A stretch of DNA of 64,000 nt, taken from positions 9,234,587-9,298,586 of the forward strand of contig CM120648.1 of the NCBI GenBank assembly GCA_051362555.1. The letters run 5' to 3'. Below the pieces are notes generated by a model. The model worked only from the letters and a program-made list of their open reading frames with translations. It ran no database searches and was not told the origin of the DNA. This document shows, in pieces, positions 4,614-60,302 of the stretch; positions within the stretch are counted from its first letter, which is position 1, and each line of letters begins with the position of its first letter. This DNA is from Lingula anatina (Eukaryota > Animalia > Brachiopoda). Position numbers and translations under genes: made by a program.

Positions 4614-26864
<22,251 letters not shown>

Positions 26865-27764: not shown

Positions 27765-37891
<10,127 letters not shown>

Positions 37892-40248
37892 CTGTGTTAG
37901 GTTTTATTAAATGTATGTACGCACTCCAGTCCAGCTAACGTAACTGCTAACTCTTTGTGGCTGCTCCAGTGCAGCTAACAAAACTTGACCATCAAAGAAA
38001 TTTAGCCACAGACAAGTAGACAGCTAACTGTTTGTGGCTGCTCCAGTGCAGCTTTCTTACTTTACCCTCCATGAATTTCAGCTGCAAGCAAGTCCACAGC
38101 TTAATCAAGTGTCATCAGAAGTGCCGATAGATTCGGAAACATTTGCTGAGGAAAAAAATCAAGTGTAATTGTGATTATATCTGTATGGAGGCACTACATC
38201 TTTTCCCAGCACTTCCTTCAGTGATAATTCTCTGCAAGTACTGCTGTGTTGCTTAAATGTGCTACATATTTTAACAATATTTATATATATGTATATTGTA
38301 CAAAGATATGTAATCAAATATATGATATACGATATAGGTCATCAGAAGGGGATTCACTCGGTCAGCTAAGCTGCCATGGTTTTCCACGTTTCCAGTTTTG
38401 CCATAGGTTGCAGAACGTGGATTCTGTGAAATTCAAAGAATTAAGATTACTGGAATACCAATTAGTTTACTTATTAGTAATGAAATATGAAAAAAAATAT
38501 TGTTCTTGGAAATCGAAATTGTGTAATTTTCCAGACAGTGTTCTTCATCTTCTGATATGTATGTTGATTTCTAGAAACTCTTGTAATATTAACTATTCTT
38601 GTTTGTTACATCATTTTTTTCAGGATATAAAAAAGATGATGGGCATTTGGTGTTTGTTTTAGTAGGACAGTAATGTTGAGTAAACTTGATAATGTTCATG
38701 TTGTCACTATAGAACTTTTTTTTTCTCTTCATTAATCTACTCTCAGTTACTAGCTCCTGTTAATCTTCAATTTCACAATTTTGATTTGGAATCTATTTTT
38801 TATTAGAATTGCAGTTATGTAGATGTGAACTTACTTTTTGCAAAGGAAAAAAAAAGAAGACCACAATTACACAAAGAAAATAAATAATTTATTTTTCTAC
38901 CATTTTGCACTAAGAATTCTGAATTCTGAGAGAGAAAGTTAGTTCAGTTAGCAAATGTTTTGCTTAAGTTGTTTTATATGATGTCATATATTTAGTTCAA
39001 ATGTCAAGGGCATAAAAGGTCAAATATAACTGTCAAGTAATTAAATTTGTATTACCTTTCCTGAATGTGAGAAACTTGTATCTTTGTCTTGCAAAAAGAA
39101 TATGTGAACCATTGGGGGAATTCAAAATGTTTGCTTTGAACATGAAATGATAATTTTGGCATGTGTGACACATTAGATGAAAAAGGGAATGCTTCAGTGA
39201 ATTTAATAATTTATATTTCGTGCAAAAAGGTATACTTGTTGAATTTCAGATTCTATGTATCTTTTGTAAAAGTGGAGTGGATATTTGAGTGAGACCGACT
39301 CTGTTACAGTGAATGTGTTAAATACTGTAGCATAGTTAATATGTGAACACATGATAATGTTTTAGCATTATTAGTTGTATATTAATGTATTAAGTTGGGA
39401 TTGTATTGCTACCATCTTTGATAAAGCTAGGGCACTGAAGTTCTTCCTTTTTGGTGCTATCTTTGATAAAGTTATGGCACTTTTTGGCAAAGTTCTTCCT
39501 TTTTGATGCTATCTTTGATGAAGATAGGACATTTTCGGACAATTTTTTTTCTTCCGTCAAGCCTGTTATATAGGTAAAAGCAGAAGTTGAAAATAAATTG
39601 TAACTCTTTAAAAATTAATTTTACATTCTTTTCAGACAGAACTGGCATCATTTGCAATTGGAGAATCCTTTTTGTGCTGAAAATGGTTTTATATCAATGA
39701 TTTCAAAGATTCATTACCAATGAAATGGCTGTACCACATGTAAAAATGTGTGAATAGGTAGTTTTTCTTTTATTAATGGCTGGACACTTTTCTTAGCTTA
39801 TTGACAAAGTTTAAGCATAAGGCCAAAGTAATTAAAGAGTCACCTGTTGTTTGATATAATAAGTATGATTTATATGGTGAAACTGTCGAGATGTATGTCG
39901 TGTAGTAACTTTTGAAAAGGGGCAATTCTTGCTAGGGTCATGGGAGATGGTTTTGTTCTCTGTTACAATCAATATTTTAAGAATGATTCCTATTTTAAAA
40001 AACCCTGCTCAGCTTATGATACAGAGCAAGATGGAGCTACTTTAATTTTTTTGTGACTGAGAAAAAAGGCGATATTCTTCATGAGAGGCTAGAATTTCTC
40101 CTTGAGTGTAAGATGAATTATATTATTTTAAATGCCTGTGTGAATGTAGGTAATGGAAAAGATGGAATATCATATCATGTGTTGGCAATAAATTTGTTAA
40201 CTTTTTTTATACTGTGTTTTCCTTCTGGATATAGATGGTTTTTACGTT

Positions 40249-40870: not shown

Positions 40871-40958
40871 CCCCAGTTACAAATAAGCTAACAGCAAGCT
40901 AAGCCCATGAGCTAGTTAACCTGAATTATTTACTTCAGCTTCGAAAAAAGGTGATGTA

Positions 40959-41546
40959 TTCTTGGTACATAATGAGGAATTAAGGGACAGCTGGATATGG
41001 GTGACATTCTTGGTACATAATGAATTGGTGGACGGCTGGATATGGGTGACATTCTTGGTACATAATGAATTGGTGGACGGCTGGATATGGGTGACATTCT
41101 TGGTACATAATGAATTGGTGGACGGCTGGATATGGGTGACATTCTTGGTACATAATGAATTGGTGGACGGCTGGATATGGGTGACATTCTTGGTACATAA
41201 TGAATTGGTGGACGGCTGGATATGGGTGACATTCTTGGTACATAATGAATTGGTGGACGGCTGGATATGGGTGACATTCTTGGTACATAATGAATTGGTG
41301 GACGGCTGGATATAGGTGACATTCTTGGTACATAATGAATTGGTGGACGGCTGGATATGGGTGACATTCTTGGTACATAATGAATTGGTGGACGGCTGGA
41401 TATAGGTGACATTCTTGGTACATAATGAATTGGTGGACGGCTGGATATGGGTGACATTCTTGGTACATAATGAATTGGTGGACGGCTGGATATGGGTGAC
41501 ATTCTTGGTACATAATGAATTGGTGGACGGCTGGATATAGGTGGCA
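40959..41546 (+). repeat. 45-bp minisatellite x13 derived from the SH3-coding exon
   Basis: One 48-bp variant unit followed by 12 copies of ttcttggtacataatgaattggtggacggctggatat(g/a)ggtgaca (=FLVHNELVDGWIWVT). TAG variants at 41313, 41403 and 41538. Confidence 0.97.
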
Positions 41547-42012
41547 TCTCTTACAACTAAAGAGAGTGGCATTGTGTACTAGGAGCTGGTCATAGATCTG
41601 GTAAGAATCTTTTGCATTTTTAATATAGATTTAGTAAGTATCTTCATGTTTACAAATTTAAGATTTTCTGTGTTTAATTATACATAATAGGCCTTCTTTG
41701 CGCCTGCACGCTAAACTGAAGCTAAGCAGTAATGGCCTTTATAACAGATGCAATTGAACTTAGTAGTGTCCATTTGACCTTACATTTAACCTTCATTTGG
41801 AGAATTTATCCAGATTGCACATCAAATGAAGAAATCAGAAATTCAAGCAAAAAGAAAATGTTGCTGTTATTGAATAGAAAGACCAGACTATGGTTGGAAC
41901 ATTTAACTATAATTTTTTCAGCTTGTAAACATGGGAACAGGAGGAACATTAATGGGTTTATAGCAAGGATGTCATTTATACAGTTATGAAAACTGGTCTG
42001 TACATCAGGCAT

Positions 42013-42224
42013 CTTAGACTGGGTTCCCATACTTAGATTGATCCATCTGGATTGACCTAACTCCCTGGGGGTTCACACTAAATTGCTATCAGCTCAAAAG
42101 ATAATTGCCCCCTAGCAGCTTTACTAGGTGTGACATACATTTAAGCCAGCCAAGTTGACAGCATTTTAGTGAGACCCCCCAGGGAGATAGATCGATCCAA
42201 ATATCTGTGGGAATGGTTCCTTAA
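42013..42224. mobile_element. Short interspersed repeat (MITE-like), with an inverted homolog at ~57505-57637
   Basis: GATAGATCGATCCAAATATCTGTGGGAATGGTTCCTTAA and ACTGGGTTCCCATACTTAGATTGATCCATCTG match the reverse complement at 57505-57637. Ends are TTA/TTAA-like. Confidence 0.6.
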
Positions 42225-43268
42225 ACTCTTATTGCTTTTCTGGTTTTTCTCTGAATCGCTCATTTTACTGTTGTATGCTAAAACTTCAACTTGTCAAATG
42301 TTTCTTGTTGAAGGAAGCACAATGTTTTTCTTTTGATATTAAGAAAGGCAGTCATGATCTTGTGGAAAATAATCTTTGGTTTCATCCAGGTATTGCAAAA
42401 CAAGAGGTTTCCCAGAAAAAGAAAAGACATCAAAATTCCAGTAATTTTCATAATTAAAATAATATATTTATGTTTAGTAATATATTTTGATCAAATGAGT
42501 CTGATAAATTGTTTTGATGTCAACTGTTTTACATCTGGTTCTGGTAGTTTTCTGGTCAGACCAAGTGAAATGGCACCTGGAGACTTCACACTCTATTTTT
42601 ATGTTGAAATCAAATTCAGAAGTTAAAAATATCTAGAAAAAGAAGGGAGCCAATTTGCCTTAGGAGGAGGATATTTTGAAAGGTATGCTTCTAATATGTT
42701 TTCTGGTGTGTCGATGAAAGTCCAAATACCACTGTGACAAGAGTTTCAAAAAGTACTTTGTCTCCTCAGTCTGAAAAAAAACCAAAAAAAACAGTGCTTA
42801 TACATTCCAACAAGAAATATAAATGCCGATTTTTTGTTTTTGAAGGTTATTTGTTGTTTTAAATCAGCGCAAAGATAGATGCATTATTGAAGATGCACGA
42901 AAAACCACATTTTCGTTATCTGGATGATAATAAAGGGTTACCATATCCTTCAATTTCTCCCTCCACCTGTCAGTTCAAGCTGGCTTATAAGCAATTTATT
43001 TTCAAAATCTTGAAATGTGGTTTGCCAATCTGCATCCTTCTCAGGTTTTCATTATTTTATGTCAAATTACTTCTCTGGAACCCTTCAGGCATATTAGGAC
43101 CTGAAATTTTATAAATTGAATTATGTGTCACATTCAATTTTTGTGACATCAGCATATGTATATATATATATAATATTTTGTGATATTTTTGAATTATTTT
43201 GTACTGGAAAGACAAAAGGGTAGGATGGCTTCATTAAATGGTGATTCTGATGCTTCTTGTTGTTTTAG

Positions 43269-46200
43269 TATAAGGGCCATAACAGGTAGGTACAAAAAAG
43301 AGGAAATCGTTGAAGTGGACACGTTAGGAGATCCTGTTCTACAGGTAAGATATCATGAAAGATTTGTAATATTTGTCAAGATTTAATTAATCATTAGACA
43401 AAGAATATATATGCACACATATATATCATCCATATGACCAAAAAACTTCAGACATATTTTGTGATTGTTTGAAAATGTCATCAATGGTGTTAATGCTCTG
43501 GAAAAGAAGAGATAAATTAATGATGCACAAAGGAAACGTGGTCTTTATAGAGGTCACTTATATTTTTTTATGTCAACTTAGTCTTAAAGAAACCTGTATA
43601 GAGATAGTTTCATGTGGTCATCACCTGCATCTTTCGTTGCTGTCAGCATTGCCTTCGTTGCCATGTGCTTTTTACCCATAAACACCATTGAAGGAAAAAT
43701 GTGTTACATATTATTCTCAAACTTGCAAGAATGATTCACTAAACTTTTAAGTGTAAAAAACTTTAAAAACAAGAATTATTCACTGAACTAATACAAAAAA
43801 AAGTCTGATTGGTTCACTGATTGACTTTTTCTGATTGGTTTCTTTTCGCTTGAATGTAATGCATATGTAATGCATTCAAAGCCTGCTAGGATTAGTTAAT
43901 TTTTCTTGAAGTTGTTAAGTTTTTTTGGAATTTTTCATTTTTCACTTTTACCACTTTCCAGGTGTGACTTTGAGTTAACATGGGTCTGAAACCCTTTTCT
44001 TGATCTCCACAGTAAAAATTGTATATAATGTACTATTGCATCAAAACTGACAAAAAACTGGTACTGTCATTGTTACCTTTATTGGGTTTTCATCATTTTC
44101 ACTCTGTTACAGGACCAATGCTTAATAAGTTTTATCATTTATATGTCTGCTCTTTTGCCATCTTTGCTGCTTTGTTTTTGTTTGGGCATAGTTTGTTGCA
44201 GTGATGTAATGGTTACAGAAAACTTTGTTGTTAAAAATACAGTTGTAATAAGTGTGCCCATTAAGCTTTAAGAAATATTTTCATTCTTTTGATTGAAGAT
44301 TTGTTAAAAAATTACAGAATGCAACAGAAGATGATGAATGTATCTATGAACTGGATACAGATGAAACAGATGCAAGAACAAGACAGTTCTATCCTGCAGT
44401 TTGGCAGATGCCAAGTACCAGTAGTGGGTCAAATTTTCTCATCAACAGAAATGATCACATTGTCCTGAAAGGATTTTTGAACAAAAAAAGTAAGTCTCTT
44501 AATGTCTTCAGAATCGCTTGAAATTGATATTATATTAGTAAGAAATTTATTTATTAATAACAATCGTAAGGCTGCAGGTACCTTAAAATATTTACAAAAT
44601 TACTACTACTAAATACGAGTGACTGAAAATATAGATATGTGTTCACCACAACCTGTTTTTGGTGGCGCAGCGCCACCTTATCTCGATGCTGCGCCACCTG
44701 ATGCGAGCCTGCGCCACCTAATGTGATTGGACCGCTACCTTATATTTCAAGCATTGAGAAGATCTTAATAATATTTTCTGGTAGAAATATAAGATATTAA
44801 ACTTCATTTTGTATAAGTCGACTGTCGTTTTTGCATCAGTTCAACGCGCTGTCAATTAAACACTGCGGCCGGCAGTAGCCGGGCAGTCTGGAGCCGTAGC
44901 AATAGTCCGAAGGTTCATTGGTCCGAATATTCACTCTAGAACCTTCGGACCAATGAACCCTTGATTAAAAAATCGATGAAAATGTTACCACTTTTCGGAC
45001 CAATGAACCTTCGGACCAATGAACCTTCGGACTATCGAGACGCCCCCGTCTCGGAACAGTTTACCCGTAATGCGTTTTTCGTGAGAACGTATTATGCGAG
45101 CGTCAGGTTTCATTCCGGCAACTCTACCTCTCCGACACAGATACCACAAGATACTCAGTTTTTCTCATTAGAATCTCATACAGTGGATTTACAGACCTGG
45201 GAATAGTCAATTAGAAATAAAGTATATAATCATAACAAGCACAAGCGAATACGGCACTTACTAGAACACTTAAGGCTACTGTACCGTTCACCTCCCGGTA
45301 AAACGAATTTATTACTGCTAAAACAATAATCAAAGGGAATTATTCCCATTTTTCCAAAAGTCTGAAGAATGAAAAGCCTACTACTAGTATATGAAACTTT
45401 CAAAGAAATCTGCTGACTTCTACCAACTATAACTACAAAAGTACCTTTAAATGTAGACGTTATATTAGCATGGCGTCGTTTTTAATGGTGCGGAGATTCA
45501 CCTTCAACAGACAAAATCATGGAAGCGCCCAAAACAACAGGTGAGATAAAGGCTTTGGAACCAGTAGCCTAATTTCGAAGGGACATTTACGCTCTTCGTT
45601 TGTGTAAGCGTGGCTTCGGCATGAACCAGGGGAAGGTAAGTTTACTACAAAATTTGTGGTTATAAAATTTCAGATATTTCGTCGTATCTTAATTGTGTCA
45701 TTACTCGCAGAAATCTAAACACAGGTAGAAGATAACATTAAAACAAAACACTTTAGCAATTAATGTTGTTTTTAATTCAGTAGTATATCTCTCGTAATGC
45801 TGATAGAAATGTGTGATGAAAAACGTGGTGTAATCACGTAGACAGTTTTATCTAGATTTAACTAGTTTCAGTCATGTGCTCTTGTTTGTGACAAGTAGTC
45901 ATGCTTTGCGAAGCTTTGCAATAGGCTGAATCTGCCACGTGTTCTTATTAGTCCCGCCTTTATACCTTTTAGGGCGCTGGCAATCACGTACACACAGTAT
46001 GATGTAGGCCTACTCTGTACATCGTCAAATGGGAGCACTGAGTCGTTATCCCCGGGTGTGATCTGTGATTGATATTTTAGAAGAATAAAAGAAGCTACAT
46101 CGAGACTTTTGAACAGATTGTGCATAAAAATATCAATAAAATATTTTAATAAGGTATAAGTGCACTCACAAACGTCTATACAGTGTATCAGTGTCAACAC

Positions 46201-49200
46201 AGAGGGGCTGGGAGGGGGGCATACGACGACTTACATGTATATGCGTCCGACGGAAGATCGTTACGTCGTTAAGGGACGGATGTACCCAAATATAGCTAAA
46301 AATTGGTTTTTTATGTCTAATTATTGGTTAAATGTGTATCTAACGTTTAACAGAATAAATTTTTTACAATTTGAACAAAAAGGAGGATTCTGATGCTGCA
46401 CACATCGGCACCGGTGGCCTGGTCTATGCGCCGCCTTCGTTGTCAAGGGCCGTTGGCATGGGTAAACTCGGTGGGCGGACCTTAGCAGCATCAGCACGTC
46501 TAGAGAAACAATAGAACAGGGATGCGCCATGCCCCCTTTGTCATAAACAGCGATCGGCAAAGCAGTGCCTATTGTTCCGCTTAAGCTGTTTTGATAGTCA
46601 CTCTTGATTGTGATCAGCGCTAAGATGAATCTTTTCCGACACATTGGATTTTCTCGAAATACGCGTTCTCCCTTGAATATTGCTTGTTGTTACACGCGCT
46701 CTTTCGATTTTCTTGTTAACTTTTTGAGATACGCAAAAAAAGAAGAAAATTCCGTTGCTTGCTTCCCGTGACAATAATCGTCATACTTTCTATCCATTTC
46801 TCCCCCCCCCCCCCCCTCCGTCTTGCATACTGTTATTGAACTGAGGTAAACAATGCCTGAAACCTTAACAAGTTTTATCTTAATCATCCATCTAACTGGA
46901 ACTTCCTTTACCTCTTAATTGGAGGGTTCAGTGGCCCACAACTCTCCTGAAGCCTCGCTGGCGATATTTAGCTCAGGTAAAAATCTACCCGAGTGTTATT
47001 TTCAGAGCATCTCCCGCAACCCTCAGGGCACTAGATAAAATCTGGACACCAGGTTTTCTAAGGAGCTAGAGAAACAAAGCAAGGATTTTTCCTGCAAAGC
47101 GTCAAAGAATTTTGACACGGACTTGACCCAGCTTACCCCTCCAAACTAACAGGGTGACATGGGCATTTTTTACAAACAAATAATAAAACTTAGATGTATC
47201 AGAGCTCTGTCGTGTCGTACGGTTGGTTGTTTTGGGGAGCCATGCATCCACATGTAAGGTGAATGAACATGTATGTTAGTTCAACTCAGAGGCGGATCCA
47301 GGATTATTCGAAGGGGGTTCCACGTATGCGAAGCTAGCCTCCTTTTAAATAAATATACCGTTCTGGGTAATAAGTATATTGAAACTTTTTTAATTGCGAG
47401 AATATTTCTGACTAAATGATGTTTTTATTATTAATGGAAATTAAGCTGCGATGTGTGGTACATATGCTGTGATTACGCTGTCCTTCATCTCTTGCGTTAG
47501 TCTACATTTTGCTGGGAATTTTAAAAATCTGTGCGTACAATTTTTAAAGGTCTGGTTAAGCCCCTGAATCTATGCAACTTGGGCAATTCGGCCTAGCATC
47601 GAGGCGCAACTAGTCCCTAGCCCTCTCTTAATTATTTCTGCTTACCATTGATCATCGGAAAATCAACAATGATATTATTTAACCTTTCCACCTGAGACAC
47701 AGTTAACGCAAGTGTCAAGATGACATCAAGCTCTAGTTTTGCTAGCATACTATACTAATTTTCTGCTTATCTGCAATCATTTATTTGTGCATCACCTAAA
47801 GTTAAATACCTTGATTTCGGCTTATTTGCAACTTAGACATTTCCTCTAACAAAGCCTGTCTATTTCTTGTTGTTGATGGTGCGATCGGCGTCCTGTAACA
47901 CGACCGTGTTTTCAAACCATTTTTCGCTTGGCGAATGTGGACAAGACCGCCTGCGATGCTGCTATTGTGTGCACATCCTAGAGCGCATCCCTTAACCTTT
48001 CCCCGACGGCAATTGACGTGGCCACTGATTGCTTGAGTCAGTAGGGCTTACTGTCAATCATTCTGGCAGTGCTAGCGGTAACCCCTTGAAGTTACTAACA
48101 GGAGGTGAGATTGATACAAAAATAAGATTTTCTGACATCCAAATACATGCAAACAAGCTAATTTCAACCGGTAGTAGAGTACCCATCTTCGCGATCGTCA
48201 GAACGATAACAGGTAAAGCTGTCAACAATTTAATTTGCTAATTTGGACAATTAACCTCCCTGAAAGGATTTTTGCTCGTTTCCTTTGCTTTCAATATTGA
48301 CGAGATAGCGTTATCTTAGCAAGCTATAAATGTCTACCTGTACACCTCAGGGAGACCAAATTCACCATGCTAATCATGAAAAGTATGCACTAAAAGTGCT
48401 TTTTAAGAAATTTTGATTGATCCCCTTTTTTCTAATTTATAGACTTTGAAAGTGAAAATTCCCTTATATTTTGATGTAATTTCACGTTTTTATAGATAAA
48501 ATCAACAATAAGTGTCTAAAGAAAAATCCCTGACTCCATCCTGTAGTACTTTGTTCAAGTGTTATAATGCCATTAAAAGCAAGTTTATAGCTGTCCATAT
48601 GCCTTAGAAAGTCAGGTGTATAAAAATGGTGTTTTTGTCCCCAAAATCCAAATATTACGTCACACGATGAAGTTGGAGCTGTGTTCCAAGCATAATTAGA
48701 TATTTTGAAGATACATTAAATGAATGTGACAAGAATAAAAAAGCCAAGACCTTTATTTTAAGAGAAAATCTCAAACCTACATTCCCACCTTAAATTGTAT
48801 CGCTAATTGCATATAGTTAATGTTTAGAGAAATGCAAGTTTTCGGGTGTGCTTTGTGTGTTGCTTATCTTGCAAAGTTAGTTTTTAGTTATTATCATTAT
48901 TGTATTTTCTTTCTTTTTCGCCGCAGCTGGCATCAGATCATTACCAAGCAATCATAGACCAGAACGGCTTTATGGCACGGGGACCACAGTTGTCTCAACC
49001 CTGCCAGATGAATAAAAATTTGCAGTATGTATTAAATTTTATCACTGACCATACAGACCCCTTTGTTATGTTGACTCAGCTTTCTAAAAGGAACCTGGTT
49101 TGCCAATATCAGCCGCACACCGACTGAAAGTAAGAAAAAATCGGATTCATTTTTGACGTAAATGTGCTTTATATATGTCATATTTTCATTACTACTAGTA

Positions 49201-52072
49201 ATTAAGTGGATGATACGGGTTAGATAAATACTAGTTATATCATTTGCAATGACTACACAACTGGTTTAATAGATTACAATGATTTGATATTTCAGACTGT
49301 GAGAGAATGTTCTGAAATTTTCTGTGGTCCAAAAGATGGAGACCAGGCTGAGAAACACCAAGTCGGGAGACTCTCCTGCCAGTTTCAACTGAAGGTTTAT
49401 CTCTGAAAGAACTTATTTGCACTGAAGCAGCAATGCTATGGTCTCAATGAGGAAATAGAAAGATCTCTTTGGATGCTTAACATTGTCTGTCATTTTATTT
49501 TATCTTATTTATAGATCTGCTACTTTCTTAGAGATTAATTTTCCAATATTGTTTCAGTATAGTGTTGAGTGTTTTGCTTAAAAAAATTGAGTATTATGAT
49601 GTGCTAATTTGGAATTTTAGTGTTTCTTTAAGAATTCATCAATTGTTGCTTGTATATGCAGAGTGTAAACTGAATCAAACACTGTGTGATTATTCAGAAC
49701 TATGTGTTTTTGTATACAGACCTGGATGATCCTATGGTAATTTAAAACCGAAAAAGTTGCTCTATACTATGTATGATAAGCAGAACAATTCTCCATGATC
49801 ACGTCACTGTAACCCTTCAAACTTTTTCAATATCCTGTTCAATGCCTTGTATTTCAGGCAAATTGAAAAATAAAAGTGGTCCAGTTGTAATCCTTCTTAG
49901 TCTGTCTTTACTCTTGGAGACTTGAGTCTTATATTTCTGATTAAATGACAAAACATAAAAGGGATTTTCCCACACTTGCTACAATATTCCAAGAAGAAAC
50001 ATTTTTTCTCTCTGCAAGTTCTTCAATGACATTTATTTCATGCAATTCAATCTGATGGATTTAATATGTATTGCCGTCTTAAATTAGTAATTTTTGGTAA
50101 TACCACGGTCTTTTAAAAAATGACACTGCATAGGGACCTCAAATTCTCTTTTAAAAATGGGCAGTGAAAATGGATTTCCAAATAATTTAACTAATAAGTA
50201 AATAATTTAATTTTGGCATCTAAAATTGCTTAAAATACATGAAATTGCACCATTTTTTCAAAATTTTCCCTGGGAAGCATGCCCCTGGACCCCCCCTAGC
50301 ATTGCTAGGACCCACACCAAAATTATTCTCCCCCACCTTATAATTTTGACTTGTGGAGAAACCTGTTAATAGTTATATTTTTACAAAAAGTCCTGTTCAG
50401 AATCATGGAAAGGGAAAAGGTTATGTTACATGCAATGATTGTAAAATTGAATTCTTTTTACCTAGAATAATCTCAGTTATTGTTTTAACAAAAGATCAAG
50501 GGATCTTTCTCATGATATGCTAGTGTTGACGGATATCTTCTTTGCACATTCATTATGGGTCTTTTTTTTTTTTTTTTTTTTTTTTTTGACATACAAACGT
50601 GGTTTTGCAGAGCAGGATTCTTCCCTTGCCAAAATGTCTCGTAAAAAATTTGAATGGACACTCCACGCCCAAACATTTTACACATTCCATAAGCATCCAA
50701 GGCCCCATTCAGAATAGGGGACCAACTAGTCTGAGGGTCAAATATGGCGACCCACTACAAAACTGGCTGTCTAATCCACTTACAGAAACTGAATAAATAT
50801 CCCATGGGTTGGGCATATTTGACCCTCGGACTAGTTAGTCCCCTATTTTGAATGGGGCCAAAGATAACCCTTTTCCCATCCAACCACTGATGGTGCTATT
50901 CATTTGTGTGTGTAAACATTTTCCAGTATCTTACAAGAACTTACAAGTTCATATTTAAACACAAAGGATGAGTGAAAAATATTAAAATTACAATTTTTGA
51001 CTAAAGCAAGGCATTATACCATCATAAGGAAAGATATCTATTGTACCTTGTAAGCAGTTTTTTTTTTCAGTGAGTCAAGTTAAATGATGAGATGCCTTTA
51101 CATTTGCAGGTGAAAGGGGAAACAAATGGGAAAATATGCACTTTGTACTGAATGGGACCAAGCAGCAGCTGTACTTTTTCGAAAATGATAAGGTACAAAG
51201 ATCTAAAAATTCCTATTGTCTTAAGTGTTTTCTTTCTTGGGAATCCAACGTTGCATTTCACTTTTTCATGTTCCAATTTTATTGTTGTTTTGAAGGGTAA
51301 ATGAATTCAAATTACTGAGTAGGCTAGGTTTTGAGGTAATTTGCCATTGGATCGTGTAATTATATACCCAGATTTACTGTTACAGCGCTCCAAACCAAAA
51401 GGTCTGATAGACCTACATTCCAGCTCCCTCTACCCAGTTCATGACAGTTTATTTGGAAGGTAAGAATCCGTTCTAAAAGAGATGTAATCTAACCATAATT
51501 TTCCATACGTTAATTTATTCATTTATTTTTATTATTATTATTTTGTTATTTTTTATTGATATTGTCATTTATCTAACTAGTATTAATACCTGCAAGTTGA
51601 TAGAGTTGACATTTTTTGTTGTGTTCTAGTATTAACACAATCTGTCAGTGCACACTTTCCAGTTTAATTCAGTTGACTTTTATGTACGTGTGTTTTGTTT
51701 CTATCTTTTTTTTTTTTTTTCCGCAGGCCCAGCTGTTTTCAGCTGGTGGTTAGAGCCTTAAACGAGTTTTTAGTCCATTATTTGTGTGCTGAAAATGCTG
51801 ATGCTGCACGGGTAATATTATTTTCTGTTATTTCCTTGCCTTGACTCAAGTGATATTTGGTGAGTCTATCAAATATTTCAAATTTAATCTCAGATTACCA
51901 ACACTTATGGTTAGACCACGGTTAGGATTTTTATATATCACATAAAAATTAGAAGCAACACTGGGAGCCCAAATTAGCTTTGGAAATTGCTAGCCAATGT
52001 TCCATTGTGTAGCAACAATTTACACAAAACAATTAGAAACTACATAGGTTTATTGTCATAAAATGATAAGTG

Positions 52073-52135
<63 letters not shown>

Positions 52136-52632
52136 TGTTTAATCCTAACCCAAACAGATTTTTATTTGATTGTTCAATGTTGTCTATCAGAATATGTTAT
52201 TGGAATGAAGAAAACCTGTCCATATACTGAATAAAATATGGAGTTTAGCATCATAAGGCTCATTTACACAATGATGAATGTTTACAATATTTCTGATGAA
52301 ATTTTTTAAAAATTAATTAATGTAGGCCCATTCAATTAATTAGTTTTTTTTTCACCATAGGAATGGGTGCAGGCTCTGAAACCGTACTGTATCAACTCCA
52401 CTCCTGCGAAAAGTTCCTTAAGACATCTGTTAAGTTTGAACATTCACGTATTCGATGCCCATCATCTTCCCGTAAAAAGCGTGCCTTATCCCTACTGCAC
52501 AATTTCAATAAATGAGGTGAAAGTTTGCCGCACAGAGGCAAAAGAGGCACCAAATCCAGTTTGGGAAGATGACTTTGTTTTGGAGTAAGTATCAAGTATG
52601 AAAAGTATGGATTTCATGTGCAGTTTACTTTG

Positions 52633-52686
<54 letters not shown>

Positions 52687-55600
52687 AGTAAGTATCAAGT
52701 ATGAAAAGTATGGATTTCATGTGCAGTTTAGTTTGTAATATATATATATATATTCGAGTAAAAAAAGGATCCTATCGAAAATCAGATTATTTTTTTGATA
52801 ACTGTTCAATTTTTTTTTATTTGGTGGTCTTTTTATGTATTTTGGAGACATTCTTCCTTTAATTACCAAGCCATTTTTTTGTTTGTTTGTTTCATTTCAA
52901 ATTTCACTGAGTGACTTTGTTTATTAAAAAGGAAGGTTCCTTTAAAATTAACAATATTGAATTATTTATTTATTTATTTATAATAAAAATGTTTATTTGT
53001 TTTTTCTCTATTGTGGCTGTATATTCTCCAGCAGTTTCACAAGCTTATTTGTACCACCTGCGAGAGTGCTGGGGTTAAATGTGGCTTTACCTGGTACTAG
53101 TTTCTAAAGATTTCAATTTAAGCATGTCCTTTCAGGGACATTCCTCAAGATGTCTGTAGCTTTACTGTCATTGTTCACAATAAGGGAATAAGGTCCAAAG
53201 ATACAGAAGTTTGTAAGTAGAATTAATTATGTTCTTAGGAAATCATAAAGAATACCATTAATGAGGCTTTTCTATAATTAATTGCTTAATTTTCTGAATT
53301 TTCTCTTGGATTTATACTGGCATTTAGATGAGTATAAAAACACGATAGCTTCATTCTCTAATGAAGAGAGCTGTAATAACTAAGTTATAGCTGTGTAGCT
53401 CAAACTGTCATTATCCCTTTGAGTGTATGACACAGCTGATGAAATTCTATGCTACTTTGTAAATGTATTGTAGTGTTCAAGACTGTCTTATTGAATGAGG
53501 TGAACCAGGGTGAGTGCAGGGAGGAGTGGTACTGCCTGTCCCCCACATCAGTCCAGGCATTTCAGGCAGTGAAAGGCAGGAAGGAGAAAATGGGATCAAT
53601 TCGAGTCAAATGGAAATTCTTGCATGAGATGATCATGCCAATCAATGAATACTCTAGCCTGAAGGAGGTGAGACCTGTATGATCTGTCAGGGACTGGTTT
53701 CTCCAGAAAAAAAAAAATGTCACCAGAAATTTTGTCTTGAGTTTTAGATTCAAATGTCTTTTTTTTTTTTTTACCAGATTTAAATCTGTGATAGCCTTAT
53801 TGACTGGAATATTATGCCTGTTTTATAACAGGAAAGATGAATGACTTGTGTTTCAAACCAATACTTAATTTAAGCGGACTGCTATGGTGTTATCTTGAAA
53901 TAAAAAAGACTACATTTTTGAGTAAGTTTAGACCATTTTTATGGACCAAAGTAACAGTTTTTATCTATTTATTTATTTATTTAGTATTGTGAAATCAGTC
54001 CCTGCAGGCTTGTGTAATGCCGGCTCAATCTTAACCACTGACTATCAAAAAAAAATATTACCTTAATGAGGAATGAGAGTAAGCCTAGGGTAAATTATTC
54101 ACATAAGTTCCTTCTCTCTTAAATAATAGAAATTTGTTTTCTCTGAGAAAGGTTGAGTATTAATAATAACACTCCTGGAATGTTAGAATACATGCAGTGT
54201 GAACAAAAAATCATTCCCTTTGTTTCAGCTGCTGATAGCCAAAGACTTGGAGGCTGTGAAGGCATTATCTCAAGTTTGCGGAAATGATAGGATTCTGCTG
54301 GCCAAATCCTTAATAAATATCTTTCGCACAGAGAAACAGGAGGCTCATCTTATTCGCACAATGAATGACAGGGAAATTGATGAAGAATGTAAGTTACGGC
54401 TTTTAAAACTTAAAAAAATAAACAGAGAGAATTTACTGAAAGATTCCATGGAAAGTTCCATGAAAATTGCTGGTGACAGACTGTAAACTTACATAAAAGC
54501 TAAAAAAAATTCTGTAAACGGTAAATGAAATTTCCTTGCAACCACAGTTGATCTTTAACTATATCATAGCTCCCAATTCAATTTCCTTATATCTGAGCTT
54601 TAAATTCATTTGCCTGATATCTGACCTTAAAATTCAGTAATTTGACACGACAGAAAAGTTATGAAACTCATAACAAAGGATATAGTGCCTTGATTTATAT
54701 CAAGGTTTGGACATGCTCTGACTTCAACCTTAATTTGATTTTTATTTTATAAGAAACTTAATCGCGATTCTTATGTTCTACAGGTACTGTATCAAATTTG
54801 TTCCGTGCAACTTCCTTTGCTACCACGCTGATGGATCAGTATATGAAGATGGTTGCTACAGACTTCGTGCGTCATGCTACTAACTCATTTGTTATGAAAG
54901 TTATAGAGTCAAGGCAATCTTGTGAGGTATAAAAAGACTAGCAATTATGATCTGATAGCTTTTTGTTGAATTTTAATACCAGTTGTTTTTGATACTTTGT
55001 TGCATATCAGAGAAATGAAGGATTAAAAAAAATTCTTTTTTTTTTTTTATCGACAGACACTTGGTTTTTGGATGTATAGCAGTCAGCACTTTCCACATTA
55101 ATACATTCAAAGGAAAACTCCTTTTTTACTATAATATTTTTCAGTTTTTGTGGATTTCCTTAGCCAATACAATAATAGGAAAACCCATGTTTTTTCTATT
55201 ATTCTCAAACTTACAAGAGTGATTCTTAGTGTTTAAATGCTACAGCTAGAGTTCAAAAACTAGCTTAATTGAATTATTTTTATTGCTTCAATATGCTGTA
55301 TACTAAACAGGGGCGGATTGAGGCAGTCTTCTGGGTCTTCCGGAAGACGGTCAAATTTCTAAGTTTACATTGATAAGTACCTAATTTTTTTTGTCGGAAG
55401 ACGGTCAAAAAAGGGGGGTTGAACAACAATTATAATGTGGAAGACAGTCAGAAAATATTTCTGGATCCGCCCCTGCTAAAGGAATTCCTTCCATGCTTTC
55501 CATTTTCAGCTCAATCCAACCCTTCTTGACAACCCAGCAGATGCTACTGCCAATAGGGAACATCTCTTATCTGTGCTTGAAGATGTTGTTCGAAATATTT

Positions 55601-58600
55601 TCATGTCAACAGACAAGTGTCCTTTGTAAGTAAGGGGGTGTTTCGGTAGTCTGACGATTCATTGGTTCGAAGGTTCATTGCTCTGAAAAATCTTGGCATT
55701 TTCATCAGATTTTAATCAAGGGTTCTTTGGTCAGCATTCGGACCAATGAACCTTTGGACTATTGCTACAGCCCCGTAAGTAACAGAGAAGTATAGTCCTT
55801 AATTTTTGCTGATGCACCTGTTGTACCCTAAGTGCAGAGCTGAAGGTAGCTTGGATTTACACCTGTTTATGATAAACAGTTACAGCAGGTAATCAAATTG
55901 CTGTTGCTCTGAAAATGCCTTTGTATCTATTTTTTTTCTGTCGAAAGATAGTCAAAAAATGGAGGATGGATCAACAAAGATAACGTGGTAGACTGTCAGA
56001 AAATATCTCTGGATCAACCCCTGAGCTATGCCTCTCAATTAAAATGTTGATTATTCTGATGTGACATTAGAAATTTAAAGAAAGCTAAGTACCGAAAAAT
56101 AAAGCCAATTGTAAATACTTAAAATATTCTTCTAGGGTGCTTCGATATATCTGCGGATGCTTGCAGAAAAAAGTCATATCCAAATGGCCAGAAGATGAAA
56201 CAGTTAAGACAAGAGTAGTTAGGTAGGCAACTTGTCCAACTATTTTTTCACAATGATAAAATAAATTTAGAATACATTTTGTTACTTTGTAAAAAGGAAA
56301 TTATTATTGTATCGTTAAAGAAACTATTCTTAAGTATGCATGGATGTACCTGGTTTTGAAATGAAACTGGACACTAATTAGCAGTGAATCAATATCAGAA
56401 CTAGTTCATTATTTTCAGCTTTGTAAATTAAAACTCTGTGATATTTATAAATCATAAAATCTGCATATTTTGTGATGCAAGTCATTGCTCCTCTTCCCAG
56501 TGCAAGGTATATTATTTAAATGAATTTGAATTTGTTTCTAGCGCATTCATTTTCCTGAGGTTGTTGTGTCCAGCATTACTTAATCCCAAGTGTTTTAACA
56601 TTATATCAGGTAGGATTTTGTTTCATTGGCCAAGCTTGAACCCTTGAACCCTTGACATATCACTCAGTGTTTTCGGAGTTGAAAATAACCCATTTCTAAT
56701 GAGAATTACAGATTATTTGTATGTGTATTTTGTTGAGAAAAGACTTGGCCAATGAGTTATTAAATCTATTATATCAGGTAGGATTTCTTCTTTAAAAAAT
56801 TATTTACTTCCTTGTTCTTTTCTGGCCACTAATATATTATCACTTAATGTTTCGGGGGTTACAGGATAGAATAAAAACCTTTTCTATTAAAAATGACAGA
56901 TTTTTGTGAAGAGAAAATGGTTTTAAGAAAAAGCTTGACTTGGGCCATATAATTTATTTTGCATAATGAAGAAACTCCTTCAGAAATGGCAGCAAGAAGT
57001 TTAAAACTGGTGGCAAAGTCCCTGCAGAATCTAGCAAATTTAGTGGAATTTGGTGCAAAGGTAACACAACTAATAGAAATCTTTTAGATGCATTAATGAT
57101 GTTGGATATTTTTCTGAAGATTGTACAACAAGAAGTATTTTATTCCATCAAGCAATATAGTAAGGAAAAAAAATAACAATTGCATTTGCTGAAGTTTAAG
57201 TACACTCTGTACATGCTTTCATAAAATGGCACTTTTTTTAAATATTATAATGCTTTTCTTAAAATAATGTGTTGCCTGTAAAATTTTCTATTTTCCAGGA
57301 GCCTTTCATGGAAGTACTTAATTCTTTTATCCTTGAAAACAAGCAAAGAATGGTCTTGTTTCTGGATGAATTGTCTGTAAGTGTTAGTTAGGTAATAATA
57401 TTTTTAAGTATAAAAGTGATAACAGAAGAAAATGCTATAATAATTACAGTTTTGCAATGAACATGTTTTTAGCCAAATGTTTTGCCACAGGCGTGTTAAG
57501 CATATTAGGGACCATTCCCACAGACATTTGAATCGATCTATCTCCATGGGGAGTCTCATTAAATTGCTATCAACTTAACCGGCTTAAATGTCTGTCACCA
57601 TGCAGATGGATCGATCTAGGCATGGGAACCCAGTTTTAAAAAAGGTGTAAAGCCTGACTATACAACACAGTGCAAAATACACCCTTAGCTAACATTCAGA
57701 GAAATATCCCCCTTTCTGGCAGAGTGGAACAAGTGGTTTTACAAAGCATTTTATAACTTTAAAAAAAATAAAAAAATTTCACTCACTAAGTAAAGTTGAA
57801 ACAGCCCAGGGGGTGACTTTTAAATGTAACATGAGGAAATAGCATGCTTATAATGTGGCTTTTGACGTTACCAGTTAAATTACCACATGTAATTTCTTGT
57901 TATGACACTGTACTGGAAACTTTTGAAGTGCAACCTTCGATTTTATTATTCAAATCTCAATAATAGGAAAAACAACTTACTCCTAAGTCTCTATAATTAT
58001 CTTTGGATTTTGCGTTAGGTTTCAGGATATTCCAAATACATCATTCATACAGCAAAGACTTTTCATATAATTCTGTATTCTCAATGTTTGTGTGATAAAA
58101 TTTCAAAAATTAATTTTTGATATATTTTAACAATAAATATCAAGATTTTCTAGATTCATCAATTACACAAGAAAGAGGCATATCATGTACATGCAAATCT
58201 TTATATATTTCTATTGCATTTGGATGTTTTTGCTTTAAATATCAGAATGTCCCTGAGTACCCTGAAGTAGAAGACTACCAAGTAGCAAACATTGGAAGGG
58301 ACTTGGCTAATGTGCATCAGATATGCTCTTCCCGTGCTGAGGAGCTTCGGGCATTAGACCAGGCACAGGCAGCACAGGGGGATCAGAGGGACCAGAAGAA
58401 ACAGGTAGGCCGCCTCAAATGATGTTCAAAGACCCCTAGACTCTTTAATAGCAAATTTTCTTGGAAATTTCTTTTTTTTTTCAATTACCAAATGTATCTC
58501 TATGTATCTCTATGTATCTCTAATGTTCTCTATTCAGAAACCCTTGACCTAATCTATAAATATACTCTGTTCAAAACTATTGACTTATTTTATATTTAAT

Positions 58601-58979
58601 TTCGAAGCTTTTATTTTATTTTTTTAGGCAATCTGGTAATGTAGAAGGAGACTTGTAAATTTAGGTTTCATGGGTTGAAATTAGAAATGTTGTCTTCGAC
58701 CTGTTTATAGAACTAAACATCAAACATTTAGGAGATGAATGTATTTGCTAACCATTCACGGGTTACCTTTGTGTCTCATGTACCTGAATCTTTGTGTCTT
58801 TTGTCCCAGTGTACCTTTTTACTTTTTTAATTGGCGAAAATGAGTTTTTTTTTATCATGCCATTTGTGATCTTAACAGATTTGTGCACTTTACTTCTGTT
58901 TCAGCACTCGTTAAAAAGACTTGCGGCTGTGACGGATATGCTGACCAAGCATAAGCAGCACTATTTAGGTAATCTTTAA
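43269..58979 (+). CDS. RASA1: Ras GTPase-activating protein 1 (p120 RasGAP)-like: end of SH2, linker and intact PH-C2-RasGAP; true start uncertain
   Basis: Exons: 43269-43344, 44318-44489, 51110-51192, 51386-51459, 51727-51811, 52361-52584, 53136-53212, 53474-53667, 54229-54388, 54784-54926, 55510-55625, 56136-56222, 56542-56609, 56972-57060, 57299-57376, 58246-58404, 58905-58979. All are GT-AG, in phase and stop-free. Motifs: PH IVLKGFLNKK..KPKGLIDL..VHDSLFGRPSCFQL; C2 PYCTISINEVKVCRT..NPVWEDDF; arginine finger LFRAT; FIFLRLLCPALLNP; LVAKSLQNLANLVEFGAKEPFME. Confidence 0.9.
44636..50365. mobile_element. Possible decayed composite DNA transposon filling the 6.6-kb RASA1-like intron
   Basis: Weak inverted ends (GTTCACCACAA / TTGTGGAGAAACCTG), repeated GCGCCACCT subterminal motifs, higher CpG than flanking introns, and exon-like fragments with stops. 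No recognisable transposase. Confidence 0.3.
44890..45047. mobile_element. MITE with CTTCGGACCAATGAAC subrepeats
   Basis: G-rich and C-rich ends, inverted 16-bp subrepeats and a GTCT direct repeat on both flanks. Homolog at 55634-55774. Confidence 0.7.
50701..50859. mobile_element. Tourist/PIF-Harbinger-like MITE, same family as 1043-1217
   Basis: Ends GGCCCCATTCAGAATAGGGGAC... and ...GTCCCCTATTTTGAATGGGGCC. Flanks CAA/AAA (imperfect TSD). Confidence 0.7.
52074..52132. repeat. (TA)n microsatellite
   Basis: Visible directly; a second (TA)n lies at 52635-52684. Confidence 0.95.
55308..55475. mobile_element. ~168-bp MITE (CAGGGGCGGAT termini)
   Basis: TIRs CAGGGGCGGAT / ATCCGCCCCTG; 5-bp TSD CTAAA. 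A truncated copy also lies at ~55925-56023. Confidence 0.8.
55634..55774. mobile_element. MITE (same family as 44890-45047) inserted at a RASA1-like splice donor
   Basis: Flanked by GTAAGTAA at 55626-55633 and 55775-55782. Confidence 0.75.
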
Positions 58980-60302
58980 TGACACTTTCCACATGAATGG
59001 GGTTGTATCATTTAGAGGAAAGCTGTACCTGTCCTTCTGACAAGGTTAAAAGGAAGAGTGAGAATCTGACTTGGTACAGCGCATGGGGAGCATCCCTCTC
59101 CCTAGTGGAAGATTTAGAGGGGGGTCAGAGGGGTCCTGACCCCCCCCCCCCTTCCATTTCTGAAAATCAAATCACACTAATTGTCCCCTCTTGAAATTAT
59201 AATTTCGACTAGCTGAATCATAGTTGTAAACCGTACCTAATGGCACCATTCGCCCTCTAAAATACCTTTTTTTTTCATGGCCCTTTAGCAGGCTCTGAAC
59301 CCCACGCAAAGGGTGGGGTGGGGGTAGCTTCGCATCAATTAATGAAAATGAGCAGCTTATGATACTATTAACAATTTAGAGCAAAAGATCCATCAGATGC
59401 TGCAATAAGATGAAGTAAATTGTTCATAACATAGCCTGTTTAAACAAAACTTTATGTTAAATCCATTAAATGAATGGTAGTTATTCTTGACCTTTAATAA
59501 TGAATGCCTATTATTCTTGAAGCATTATCATCAGTAAATTATAGGATTTGAAGTTGACATTATTTTTCATTTATTTATTTATTGCATGATCAATATGCCA
59601 GTTGTTGCTGTTATGCCAAATATACTTTAGCAATTCATGTTTTCTTTTTTTCCCTGTTTTACAGAAAATCAAGCTGTCTAAATTGGGTTAGAGAACTGTG
59701 AAGTTGCCATAACCAGCCATAACAACTTTGGGTTCAAGATCAAATCATAACTTGTGATGCACTAATTATTACATTGTTTTAAATATGGTTAGACCTTGTT
59801 TTATATGTGCATCTCATTATAATTGAAACAAATGAGGCAACTGTAATTGCAGATGGGATTGTGTGTTCTCAACATGCATCGTGGATATTCAATTATTACA
59901 GACTGTACACACACACTTGACAACAGAAGTGTCACCCCCTGATCAGTGGAATCAAAGTTATAATGCCTAGTCTACTTATAATGTGATTAATGAGTATAAA
60001 ACTGCTGTACCATGAAATTGTATTGTTGGTCTTTTTGTGAAATTTGATGTTAATAAAATGATACCAGGAGCATATCATTCCACAGTCATTTATCTCCCCC
60101 AAAGTATTAGTTCAGTAGGGGTGACACTTCTATTGTCCAGTGTGAGTAATTTTACTTGGTATTTTTATATAATGTTTACAGGAAGGTGCAAGGTAGTCAA
60201 TCATTTTAAGCATAGCTTAACGTGCAAGGGATGCCGTATTCTACTTAATATGTACTTTTGATGATTTTTAGTATTTACTACTTTCACCCATACTAATGGA
60301 CA

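What the first reader, a model, noticed from the sequence alone, without database searches (positions are those of the whole stretch)
40939..58979. Half-dead RASA1: adaptor module decaying while PH-C2-GAP stays intact
Seen: the SH3 and C-SH2 exons carry several independent lesions and no N-SH2 exon was found after the POM121-like 3'UTR. In contrast, 17 downstream exons have no stop or frameshift, all have canonical splice sites, and the arginine finger (LFRAT) and FLR motif are retained. Inference: this is either a partial duplicate that became an SH2/SH3-less RasGAP, uncoupled from phosphotyrosine recruitment and targeted only via PH/C2, or a gene caught early in decay. The sharp asymmetry favours ongoing selection on the 3' half.
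Basis: partly seen in the sequence, partly recalled or inferred. Interest (0 to 1): 0.8.

Follow-up and report, generated by a model that had tools for sequence, protein, structure and literature searches.

The report
Fading front-truncated RASA1 duplicate in Lingula
This is a partial second copy of the Ras off-switch gene RASA1 in a lamp shell (Lingula): its front exons are missing or broken, its back half is still an open reading frame but is changing about eight times faster than the intact parent gene and gave no reads in five RNA samples, so it is likely a once-useful duplicate now fading rather than a new active enzyme.

Summary
Seventeen exons (43269-58979) splice GT-AG into a 652-codon open frame with the catalytic arginines kept. 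The SH3 and C-SH2 exons carry 7 disruptive lesions, and no N-SH2 remnant is in the window.

The protein hits are from Lingula anatina. A full-length RASA1 exists at a second locus; two DNA runs hold both copies at equal depth, with introns about 11% apart. So this is a 5'-truncated duplicate.

The 3' half is not neutral: it has 0 lesions against roughly 6-13 expected, and conserved residues are hit 11/211 against 11/58 upstream of Met 44408. Nor is it intact in the usual sense: its branch is 0.104 against 0.013 for the parent (lineage dN/dS about 0.6-0.9), an invariant PH lysine became Glu, and other alleles change invariant residues. In five RNA runs, 49 of 49 reads at three diagnostic sites carried the parent's letter.

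Best reading: a PH-C2-GAP remnant kept open by weak selection for much of its life, now silent or narrowly expressed. Ongoing function is not shown.

The parts
40939..41600 (+). Decayed SH3 exon of the RASA1 duplicate: +1 frameshift at 40949, in-frame stops at 41313, 41403, 41538 and 41580
40958..41552 (+). 45-bp unit of SH3 coding sequence amplified to 13.1 copies, 97% matches
42344..42418 (+). First C-SH2 exon; its 3' end and donor are lost
   Evidence: X4 contig 42199-42572 with 1 other letter
42535..42682 (+). Second C-SH2 exon; acceptor reads AT, -1 at 42609, +4 at about 42638
   Evidence: X4 contig 42543-42883 with 1 other letter, no gaps
43269..43344 (+). Last C-SH2 exon: open, but 5 of 25 codons changed
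44318..44489 (+). Linker / PH-start exon; 7 out-of-frame ATGs at 44319-44370; first in-frame Met at 44408 (start of RefSeq model P0001)
44490..51109 (+). 6.6-kb intron full of high-copy repeats, with a diverged copy of another spliced transcript
   Evidence: X4 depth up to 1.7e5; X18 joint 46141>49300
51110..51811 (+). Three PH exons (51110-51192, 51386-51459, 51727-51811); invariant Lys>Glu at 51130 (human K491)
52361..53667 (+). Three C2 exons (52361-52584, 53136-53212, 53474-53667); S705, R707 and W689 equivalents kept; 9-nt in-frame insertion near 53554
53033..53107 (+). Cryptic terminal exon used by RefSeq model P0001
54229..58979 (+). Nine RasGAP and C-terminal exons (54229-54388, 54784-54926, 55510-55625, 56136-56222, 56542-56609, 56972-57060, 57299-57376, 58246-58404, 58905-58979); arginine finger at 54804, FLR arginine at 56558, K949 equivalent at 57058
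59665..59681 (+). Alternative last exon (donor after 58968), as in RefSeq model P0123; AATAAA at 60052
27951..37892 (+).

Best explanation
This is a DNA-level partial duplicate of Lingula RASA1 that lacks the parent's first exons; its PH-C2-GAP frame was likely kept open by weak purifying selection for much of its history and is now likely silent or nearly so. Shown: an intact parent at a second locus, shared exon structure with introns about 11% apart, a dead SH3/C-SH2 part, an open 3' frame with catalytic residues, about 8-fold faster protein change, and no reads of this copy in five RNA runs. Inferred steps: (1) the copy landed, or was later cut, 3 kb behind a POM121-like gene without the RASA1 promoter and N-SH2 exons; (2) some borrowed or internal start let a protein of about 597 aa be made from Met 44408, which would resemble the PH-C2-GAP 'fragment C' that caspase-3 cuts from human RASA1; (3) everything upstream of that Met decayed freely, while downstream only null and severe changes were removed because the parent covers the function; (4) selection has since weakened further, so alleles that alter invariant residues now segregate.
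For: Parent P0002 has SH2 x2, SH3, PH, C2 and GAP and lies on another scaffold. X2 and X7 hold both copies at equal depth (47 vs 52; 64 vs 67), with half-depth alleles inside this copy. There are 0 lesions in 1791 nt plus 15 introns, where 6.3-13 are expected at d=0.05 (P0 1.7e-3 to 2e-6). Conserved residues are hit 11/58 upstream vs 11/211 downstream of the Met (p=0.002), and 30 unchanged codons follow position 44420. Branch lengths are 0.104 vs 0.013, and relative-rate tests give p<0.01 for 7 of 8 outgroups. Conserved-site changes number 11 on this copy and 0 on the parent. Pairwise dN/dS is 0.5-0.7 in four exons. 49 of 49 RNA reads at sites 51130, 53500 and 54866 carry the parent's letter. 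Other alleles: His>Arg (His in 115/119), Phe>Tyr (Phe in all aligned homologues), and Arg/Ile heterozygous in X7 at a site that is Lys or Arg in 119/119. RefSeq splits the locus into two models.
Against: No lesion has yet appeared in the 3' frame of this haplotype, so any loss of selection must be recent: death over the last 40% of the branch has P about 0.002-0.08, over the last 20% about 0.02-0.3. RNA depth was low (parent 2-18 reads per site; 6-25% of each run read), the tissues are unknown, and the RNA animals were not shown to carry the duplicate. No promoter or start was observed. The allele counts are small (about 6 changes), and the RefSeq differences could include assembly errors.
Confidence: 0.52

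Rival explanations
1. A living, narrowly expressed (for example gonad or embryo) SH2/SH3-less RasGAP translated from Met 44408. It would be free of phosphotyrosine recruitment and still under relaxed or partly positive selection.
For: Open frame far beyond neutral expectation. All tested catalytic and C2-patch residues are kept. Constraint begins right at the Met. The last exon and polyA signal are retained. RefSeq has models here, one starting at this Met. Five codon changes in six codons just before the Met (scan p=0.04) leave an acceptor-like site that would skip 7 out-of-frame ATGs. Isolated human C2-GAP is active in vitro (PMC11831179).
Against: 0 of 49 diagnostic reads in five runs, an upper bound of about 6-8% of the parent's level. 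The PH lysine is reversed in charge, and 11 conserved-site changes have accumulated. Alleles alter invariant residues. The candidate acceptor scores only 11th of 128 decoy AGs.
Confidence: 0.3
2. Dead on arrival: an unprocessed pseudogene, neutral since the duplication. The 3' frame would be open by luck or by patchy gene conversion from the parent, and the 5' lesions would cluster near the breakpoint.
For: No expression seen. Lineage dN/dS is estimated as high as 0.9. The 5' vs 3' overall missense rates differ only weakly (7.2% vs 4.8%, p=0.10).
Against: P(no lesion) is 1.7e-3 from stops and splice sites alone at d=0.05. Invariant sites are depleted (7 seen vs 14.7 expected, p=0.01). Differences from the parent are spread over 16 of the 17 exons, and the introns are about 11% apart, which leaves little room for recent conversion.
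Confidence: 0.11
3. A read-through fusion: transcripts of the upstream POM121-like gene splice into the RASA1 exons and give a nuclear-envelope-anchored PH-C2-GAP, which would explain the open frame without an own promoter.
For: Same strand and 3 kb apart. A phase-0 donor (after 35284) and a phase-1 donor (after about 37451) of the upstream gene match acceptors at 44318 and 51110 (read). Fusions are a known fate of 5'-truncated duplicates (PMC6169893).
Against: No read with this copy's letters in five runs, although a nucleoporin would be expected to be broadly expressed (inference). Sequence before Met 44408 in the same exon is unconstrained. The upstream gene was not in either read lay, so the junction was not tested directly.
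Confidence: 0.05
4. An assembly artefact, or a diverged allele of the single RASA1 locus.
For: The species is reported as highly heterozygous (1.6%, PMC4595640).
Against: Independent short-read contigs reproduce the C-SH2 lesions. Both versions occur in X2, X4 and X7, with further half-depth alleles inside this copy. A second public assembly carries both on different scaffolds.
Confidence: 0.02

Closest known systems
Lingula anatina RASA1 (XP_023933304.1, P0002) and human p120RasGAP/RASA1 (PDB 9BZ4, 1WER)
   Same: Direct parent: 574 of 647 aligned codons identical, same exon junctions, catalytic and C2-patch residues kept; GAP part E=1e-112 to 9BZ4.
   Different: No N-SH2, dead SH3 and C-SH2, about 8-fold faster protein change, PH Lys>Glu, no expression seen.
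RefSeq models XP_013409478.1 (P0001, PH-partial C2) and XP_013408333.1 (P0123, GAP)
   Same: The same locus in another assembly: 96-98% identical on the query exons, both on one 1,121,267-bp scaffold.
   Different: There the locus is split into two automatic models; here one 597-codon frame runs through. The 5' decay and the rates are not part of that annotation as far as seen.
5'-truncated segmental duplicates such as human CHRFAM7A, HYDIN2, ROCK1P1, FRMPD2 (PMC6169893, passages read)
   Same: Partial DNA duplicate that lost the ancestral promoter and first exons and would need a new start.
   Different: Invertebrate and older (about 10-12% neutral divergence); the new start and expression are not shown.
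Caspase-3 fragment C of human RasGAP (cut after D455; PMC7830632, passages read)
   Same: The predicted product starts 13 codons after a DETD motif that lies beside the human D455/Y460 region and covers PH-C2-GAP.
   Different: Fragment C is a proteolytic product, pro-apoptotic in mammalian cells; nothing of the kind was tested in Lingula.
SynGAP / DAB2IP / RASAL2-3 family (PH-C2-GAP order recalled; family named in PMC11831179)
   Same: Same predicted domain order without SH2 or SH3.
   Different: Descends from RASA1, not from SynGAP (E 1e-112 vs 2e-29); ends soon after the GAP domain.

Membership tests
RASA1 / p120RasGAP (full member) | N-terminal SH2-SH3-SH2 module | tested here: not met
   No N-SH2 remnant in the window; SH3 and C-SH2 carry 7 lesions
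RASA1 / p120RasGAP (full member) | PH-C2-RasGAP domains in order | tested here: met
   652-codon frame; Pfam PH, C2 and RasGAP on the allelic models P0001 and P0123
RASA1 / p120RasGAP (full member) | Catalytic R789, R903, K949 and C2 patch W689, S705, R707 | tested here: met
   All kept
RASA1 / p120RasGAP (full member) | Descent from the RASA1 clade | tested here: met
   Sister to Lingula RASA1, support 100 among 27 of the 121 aligned sequences used for the tree; no non-RASA1 GAP was in the tree
RASA1 / p120RasGAP (full member) | GAP activity on Ras | not testable with these tools
   Needs an enzyme assay
5'-truncated partial gene duplicate | Intact parent at a second locus | tested here: met
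   P0002; equal-depth contigs of both copies in X2 and X7
5'-truncated partial gene duplicate | DNA-level copy (introns kept), first exons missing | tested here: met
   Introns align to the parent's contigs at about 88-90%; no N-terminal exons
5'-truncated partial gene duplicate | New promoter or fusion gives a transcript | tested here: inconclusive
Unprocessed pseudogene | Disabling lesions across the coding region | tested here: not met
   7 lesions in the 5' part, none in 597 codons after Met 44408
Unprocessed pseudogene | Neutral evolution (dN/dS near 1, no sparing of conserved sites) | tested here: inconclusive
   Lineage dN/dS about 0.6-0.9 by rough estimate, but conserved sites spared (p 0.01-0.02)
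Unprocessed pseudogene | No productive expression | tested here: inconclusive
   None seen in five runs, upper bound about 6-8% of the parent's level; tissues unknown
SynGAP/DAB2IP family | Descent from the SynGAP clade | tested here: not met
   Far closer to RASA1 than to SynGAP

The most novel reading that the evidence does not exclude
A naturally evolved, gene-encoded equivalent of RasGAP 'fragment C': a RASA1 duplicate that shed its SH2-SH3-SH2 module, gained a new splice entry just before Met 44408, and now works in one tissue or stage as a receptor-independent PH-C2-GAP, reaching the SynGAP/DAB2IP layout from a RASA1 start.
Probability: 0.25. Interest if true: 0.5.

Novelty: new member of a known kind. 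Interest (0 to 1): 0.22.

Why it matters
If silent, it is one well-resolved example of how a young partial duplicate fades in a genome already known for many young duplicates (PMC4595640). It shows a sharp boundary at an internal Met between free decay and weak constraint, and it warns that an open frame plus catalytic motifs does not prove a working gene. If it is expressed somewhere, it would be a natural test of what a RasGAP does without phosphotyrosine docking, which otherwise is studied with engineered or caspase-cut fragments.

Tried and rejected
No whole genome is held, so the parent locus, its neighbours and the breakpoint could not be read, and dN/dS had to be estimated from read-lay tallies. 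No RNA holder was listed by the index; this blank is not used as evidence. The spliced joint 44489>51110 in three RNA runs first looked like expression of this copy; it was rejected because all 18 reads at 51130 carry the parent's letter. The 5'-exon counts used wrong coordinates and were dropped; one search replaces them, and one of its 13 missense calls (42642) is an artefact of the 4-nt insertion. New acceptor before Met 44408: weak (score 3.9, rank 11 of 128 decoys; true acceptors 0.6-14.6), kept only as a lead. Recent gene conversion was set aside because the differences are spread over the exons and the introns are about 11% apart. Rfam found nothing in 37000-64000. Earlier-findings look-ups were empty. 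Paper searches 'Lingula + RASA1' (0 papers), 'Lingula + RasGAP' (1 unrelated paper, listing only) and a RASA1 duplicate search (0) found no description of this copy in the held library. The spreadsheet supplements of PMC13121700 and its largest PDF were too large to read and may hold expression values for both copies; the three readable PDFs had no hit. No structure or complex was predicted, because the sequence match to 9BZ4 already fixes the fold.
Full report
Observation. Seventeen exons from 43269 to 58979, all with AG acceptors and GT donors, splice into one open frame of 652 codons. Mapped to human numbering through the 9BZ4 alignment and three mammalian homologues, the arginine finger R789, the FLR arginine R903, K949 and the C2 patch W689, S705 and R707 are kept. 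The C2 patch residues come from PMC11831179 (passages read). Upstream, the SH3 exon and two C-SH2 exons carry seven disruptive lesions: a +1 base, a 13-copy amplification of a 45-bp coding unit with stops in three units, a second stop, a lost donor, a lost acceptor, a -1 and a +4. No N-SH2 remnant is found anywhere in the window by tblastn or by a profile HMM that does find the decayed exons. Contigs of DNA run X4 repeat the C-SH2 region with 0-1 other letters and no gaps, so those four lesions are real; the SH3-exon lesions were not covered by a listed piece.

What it is. The C2 exon finds two proteins, both named Lingula anatina by the source: a full-length 925-aa RASA1 (P0002, 91% identical) on a 682-kb scaffold, and a 207-aa model (P0001, 96%) on a 1.12-Mb scaffold. 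A GAP exon finds a second model on the same 1.12-Mb scaffold (P0123, 352 aa, 98%). So a public assembly holds both the parent and this locus, the latter split into two models. P0123 also shows an 18th small exon at 59665-59681. In DNA runs X2 and X7, contigs of this copy and of the parent lie side by side at equal depth (47 vs 52; 64 vs 67), and this copy has its own half-depth alleles: two loci, not two alleles. The parent's contigs differ by 46 letters in 486 bases, 52 in 527 and 15 in 143; after taking out about 13 exon differences (my estimate) this is about 11% in introns. It is a DNA-level duplicate that lacks the parent's first exons and sits 3 kb behind an FG-rich gene (POM121-like by recall; no Pfam hit). 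A pair at about 0.1 synonymous divergence lies at the edge of the young class (Ks below 0.1) reported as unusually abundant in this genome (PMC4595640, passages read).

Is the 3' half under selection? It has been, but weakly.

For selection: after Met 44408 there is no stop, frameshift or splice loss, where 6.3 (stops and splice sites only) to 13 are expected at a branch divergence of 0.05 (the indel rates are my assumption). The only two indels are in frame, 6 and 9 nt. Residues conserved in at least 75% of 119 homologues are changed in 11 of 58 cases upstream of the Met and 11 of 211 downstream (p=0.002). At the 90% level, 7 are seen where 14.7 are expected if the copy's roughly 54 changes fell at random (p=0.01). 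The boundary lies at the Met, not at the first 'intact' exon: 12 of 55 codons before it are changed, then 30 codons in a row after 44420 are not.

Against normal constraint: the branch to this copy is 0.104 substitutions per site and that to the parent 0.013 (575 columns, 27 of 121 aligned sequences; relative-rate p<0.01 with 7 of 8 outgroups, p=0.052 with the eighth). All 11 conserved-site differences are on this copy, including a PH lysine present in 118 of 118 homologues that is Glu here. In four exons the parent's RNA reads differ at 37 and 36 places, of which 24-25 are needed for the 23 amino-acid differences, giving pairwise dN/dS 0.5-0.7. Splitting this by branch gives roughly 0.6-0.9 for this copy (hand estimate, few synonymous sites). 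Overall missense rates upstream and downstream differ only weakly (7.2% vs 4.8%, p=0.10).

Is it expressed? Not in what could be read. Three RNA runs show the joint 44489>51110 (12, 4 and 2 reads), but all 18 reads at 51130 carry the parent's letter, and bin 42262-42612 has no depth. In two more runs, all 18 reads at 53500 and all 13 at 54866 carry the parent's letter; 0 of 24 and 2 of 36 laid reads were 99% alike, and the only non-exon depth in the latter run lies at the intronic end of the stretch. That is 0 of 49 reads (36 start places) in five runs from three studies, an upper bound near 6-8% of a weakly expressed parent. Limits: 6-25% of each run was read, the tissues are unknown, and it is not shown that those animals carry the duplicate. 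The spreadsheet supplements of PMC13121700 could not be opened.

Present state. Other alleles of this copy change invariant residues. His>Arg (His in 115/119) and Pro>Leu occur in P0001, and Phe>Tyr (Phe in all aligned homologues) in P0123. X7 appears heterozygous for Arg/Ile at 53188, a site that is Lys or Arg in 119 of 119 homologues. These are few events, and the RefSeq ones may include errors, but they fit weak or absent selection today. Death cannot be old: no selection over the last 40% of the branch has P of about 0.002-0.08, over the last 20% about 0.02-0.3.

How it most likely works. Inferred: without the parent's promoter the copy used a borrowed or internal start and made a PH-C2-GAP protein from Met 44408. 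Seven out-of-frame ATGs lie upstream in the same exon, so the transcript would have had to start or splice in past them. A cluster of five changes in six codons (scan p=0.04) leaves an acceptor-like site at 44400, but it scores only 11th of 128 decoys. The product would resemble fragment C, which caspase-3 cuts from human RasGAP after D455 (PMC7830632, passages read), and would likely be catalytically able, since human C2-GAP is active alone (PMC11831179). With the parent intact, selection removed nulls but let most other changes through, and it now seems to be lapsing. I put this at 0.52, a living tissue-restricted gene at 0.30, dead on arrival at 0.11, a read-through fusion with the upstream gene at 0.05 and an artefact at 0.02.

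Comparison and verdict. By descent it is RASA1, but it fails the SH2-SH3-SH2 test. It is a 5'-truncated partial duplicate of the kind catalogued in humans (PMC6169893, passages read), and not yet a textbook pseudogene. The locus is already annotated as RASA1-like in RefSeq; three paper searches found no description of it in the held library. It is a real and cleanly resolved case but an ordinary kind of event: interest 0.22, rising to about 0.5 if expression of the truncated GAP is shown.

Noticed in passing
window 45470-49740 (inside the 44490-51109 intron): Diverged copy of another spliced transcript: run X18 shows a joint 46141>49300 in 46 reads, and its reads there carry other letters than the window. 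A possible first exon with ATG at 45520 and a phase-1 donor after 45541 would be in frame with the PH exon at 51110, a candidate borrowed promoter.
   Followed up: partly
window 40958-41552: A 45-bp piece of SH3 coding sequence amplified in frame to 13 near-identical copies, three sharing the same stop: a young minisatellite born inside a dead exon.
   Followed up: partly
window 52581-52753: 70-bp direct duplication of the C2 exon donor region around an AT microsatellite; it lies in the interval where the RefSeq annotation splits into two models.
   Followed up: no
window 44380-44408: Five amino-acid changes in six codons in the motif matching human Y460, directly before the first in-frame Met, leaving an acceptor-like sequence.
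   Followed up: partly
window about 4600-26850 (-) and 27951-37892 (+): A HEAT-repeat gene that looks like condensin subunit NCAPD2 (label recalled; only weak HEAT hits) lies head to head with the POM121-like gene, which carries a 33-bp x 8 coding repeat at 36999-37267.
   Followed up: no
window 7422-9434 and 13067-13459: Arrays of a 159-162-bp repeat unit within the minus-strand gene's span.
   Followed up: no
proteins P0008, P0019, P0023, P0054, P0074: RASA1 homologues from other animals with no SH2 or SH3 annotated; probably incomplete models (P0008 is labelled partial), not checked.
   Followed up: no
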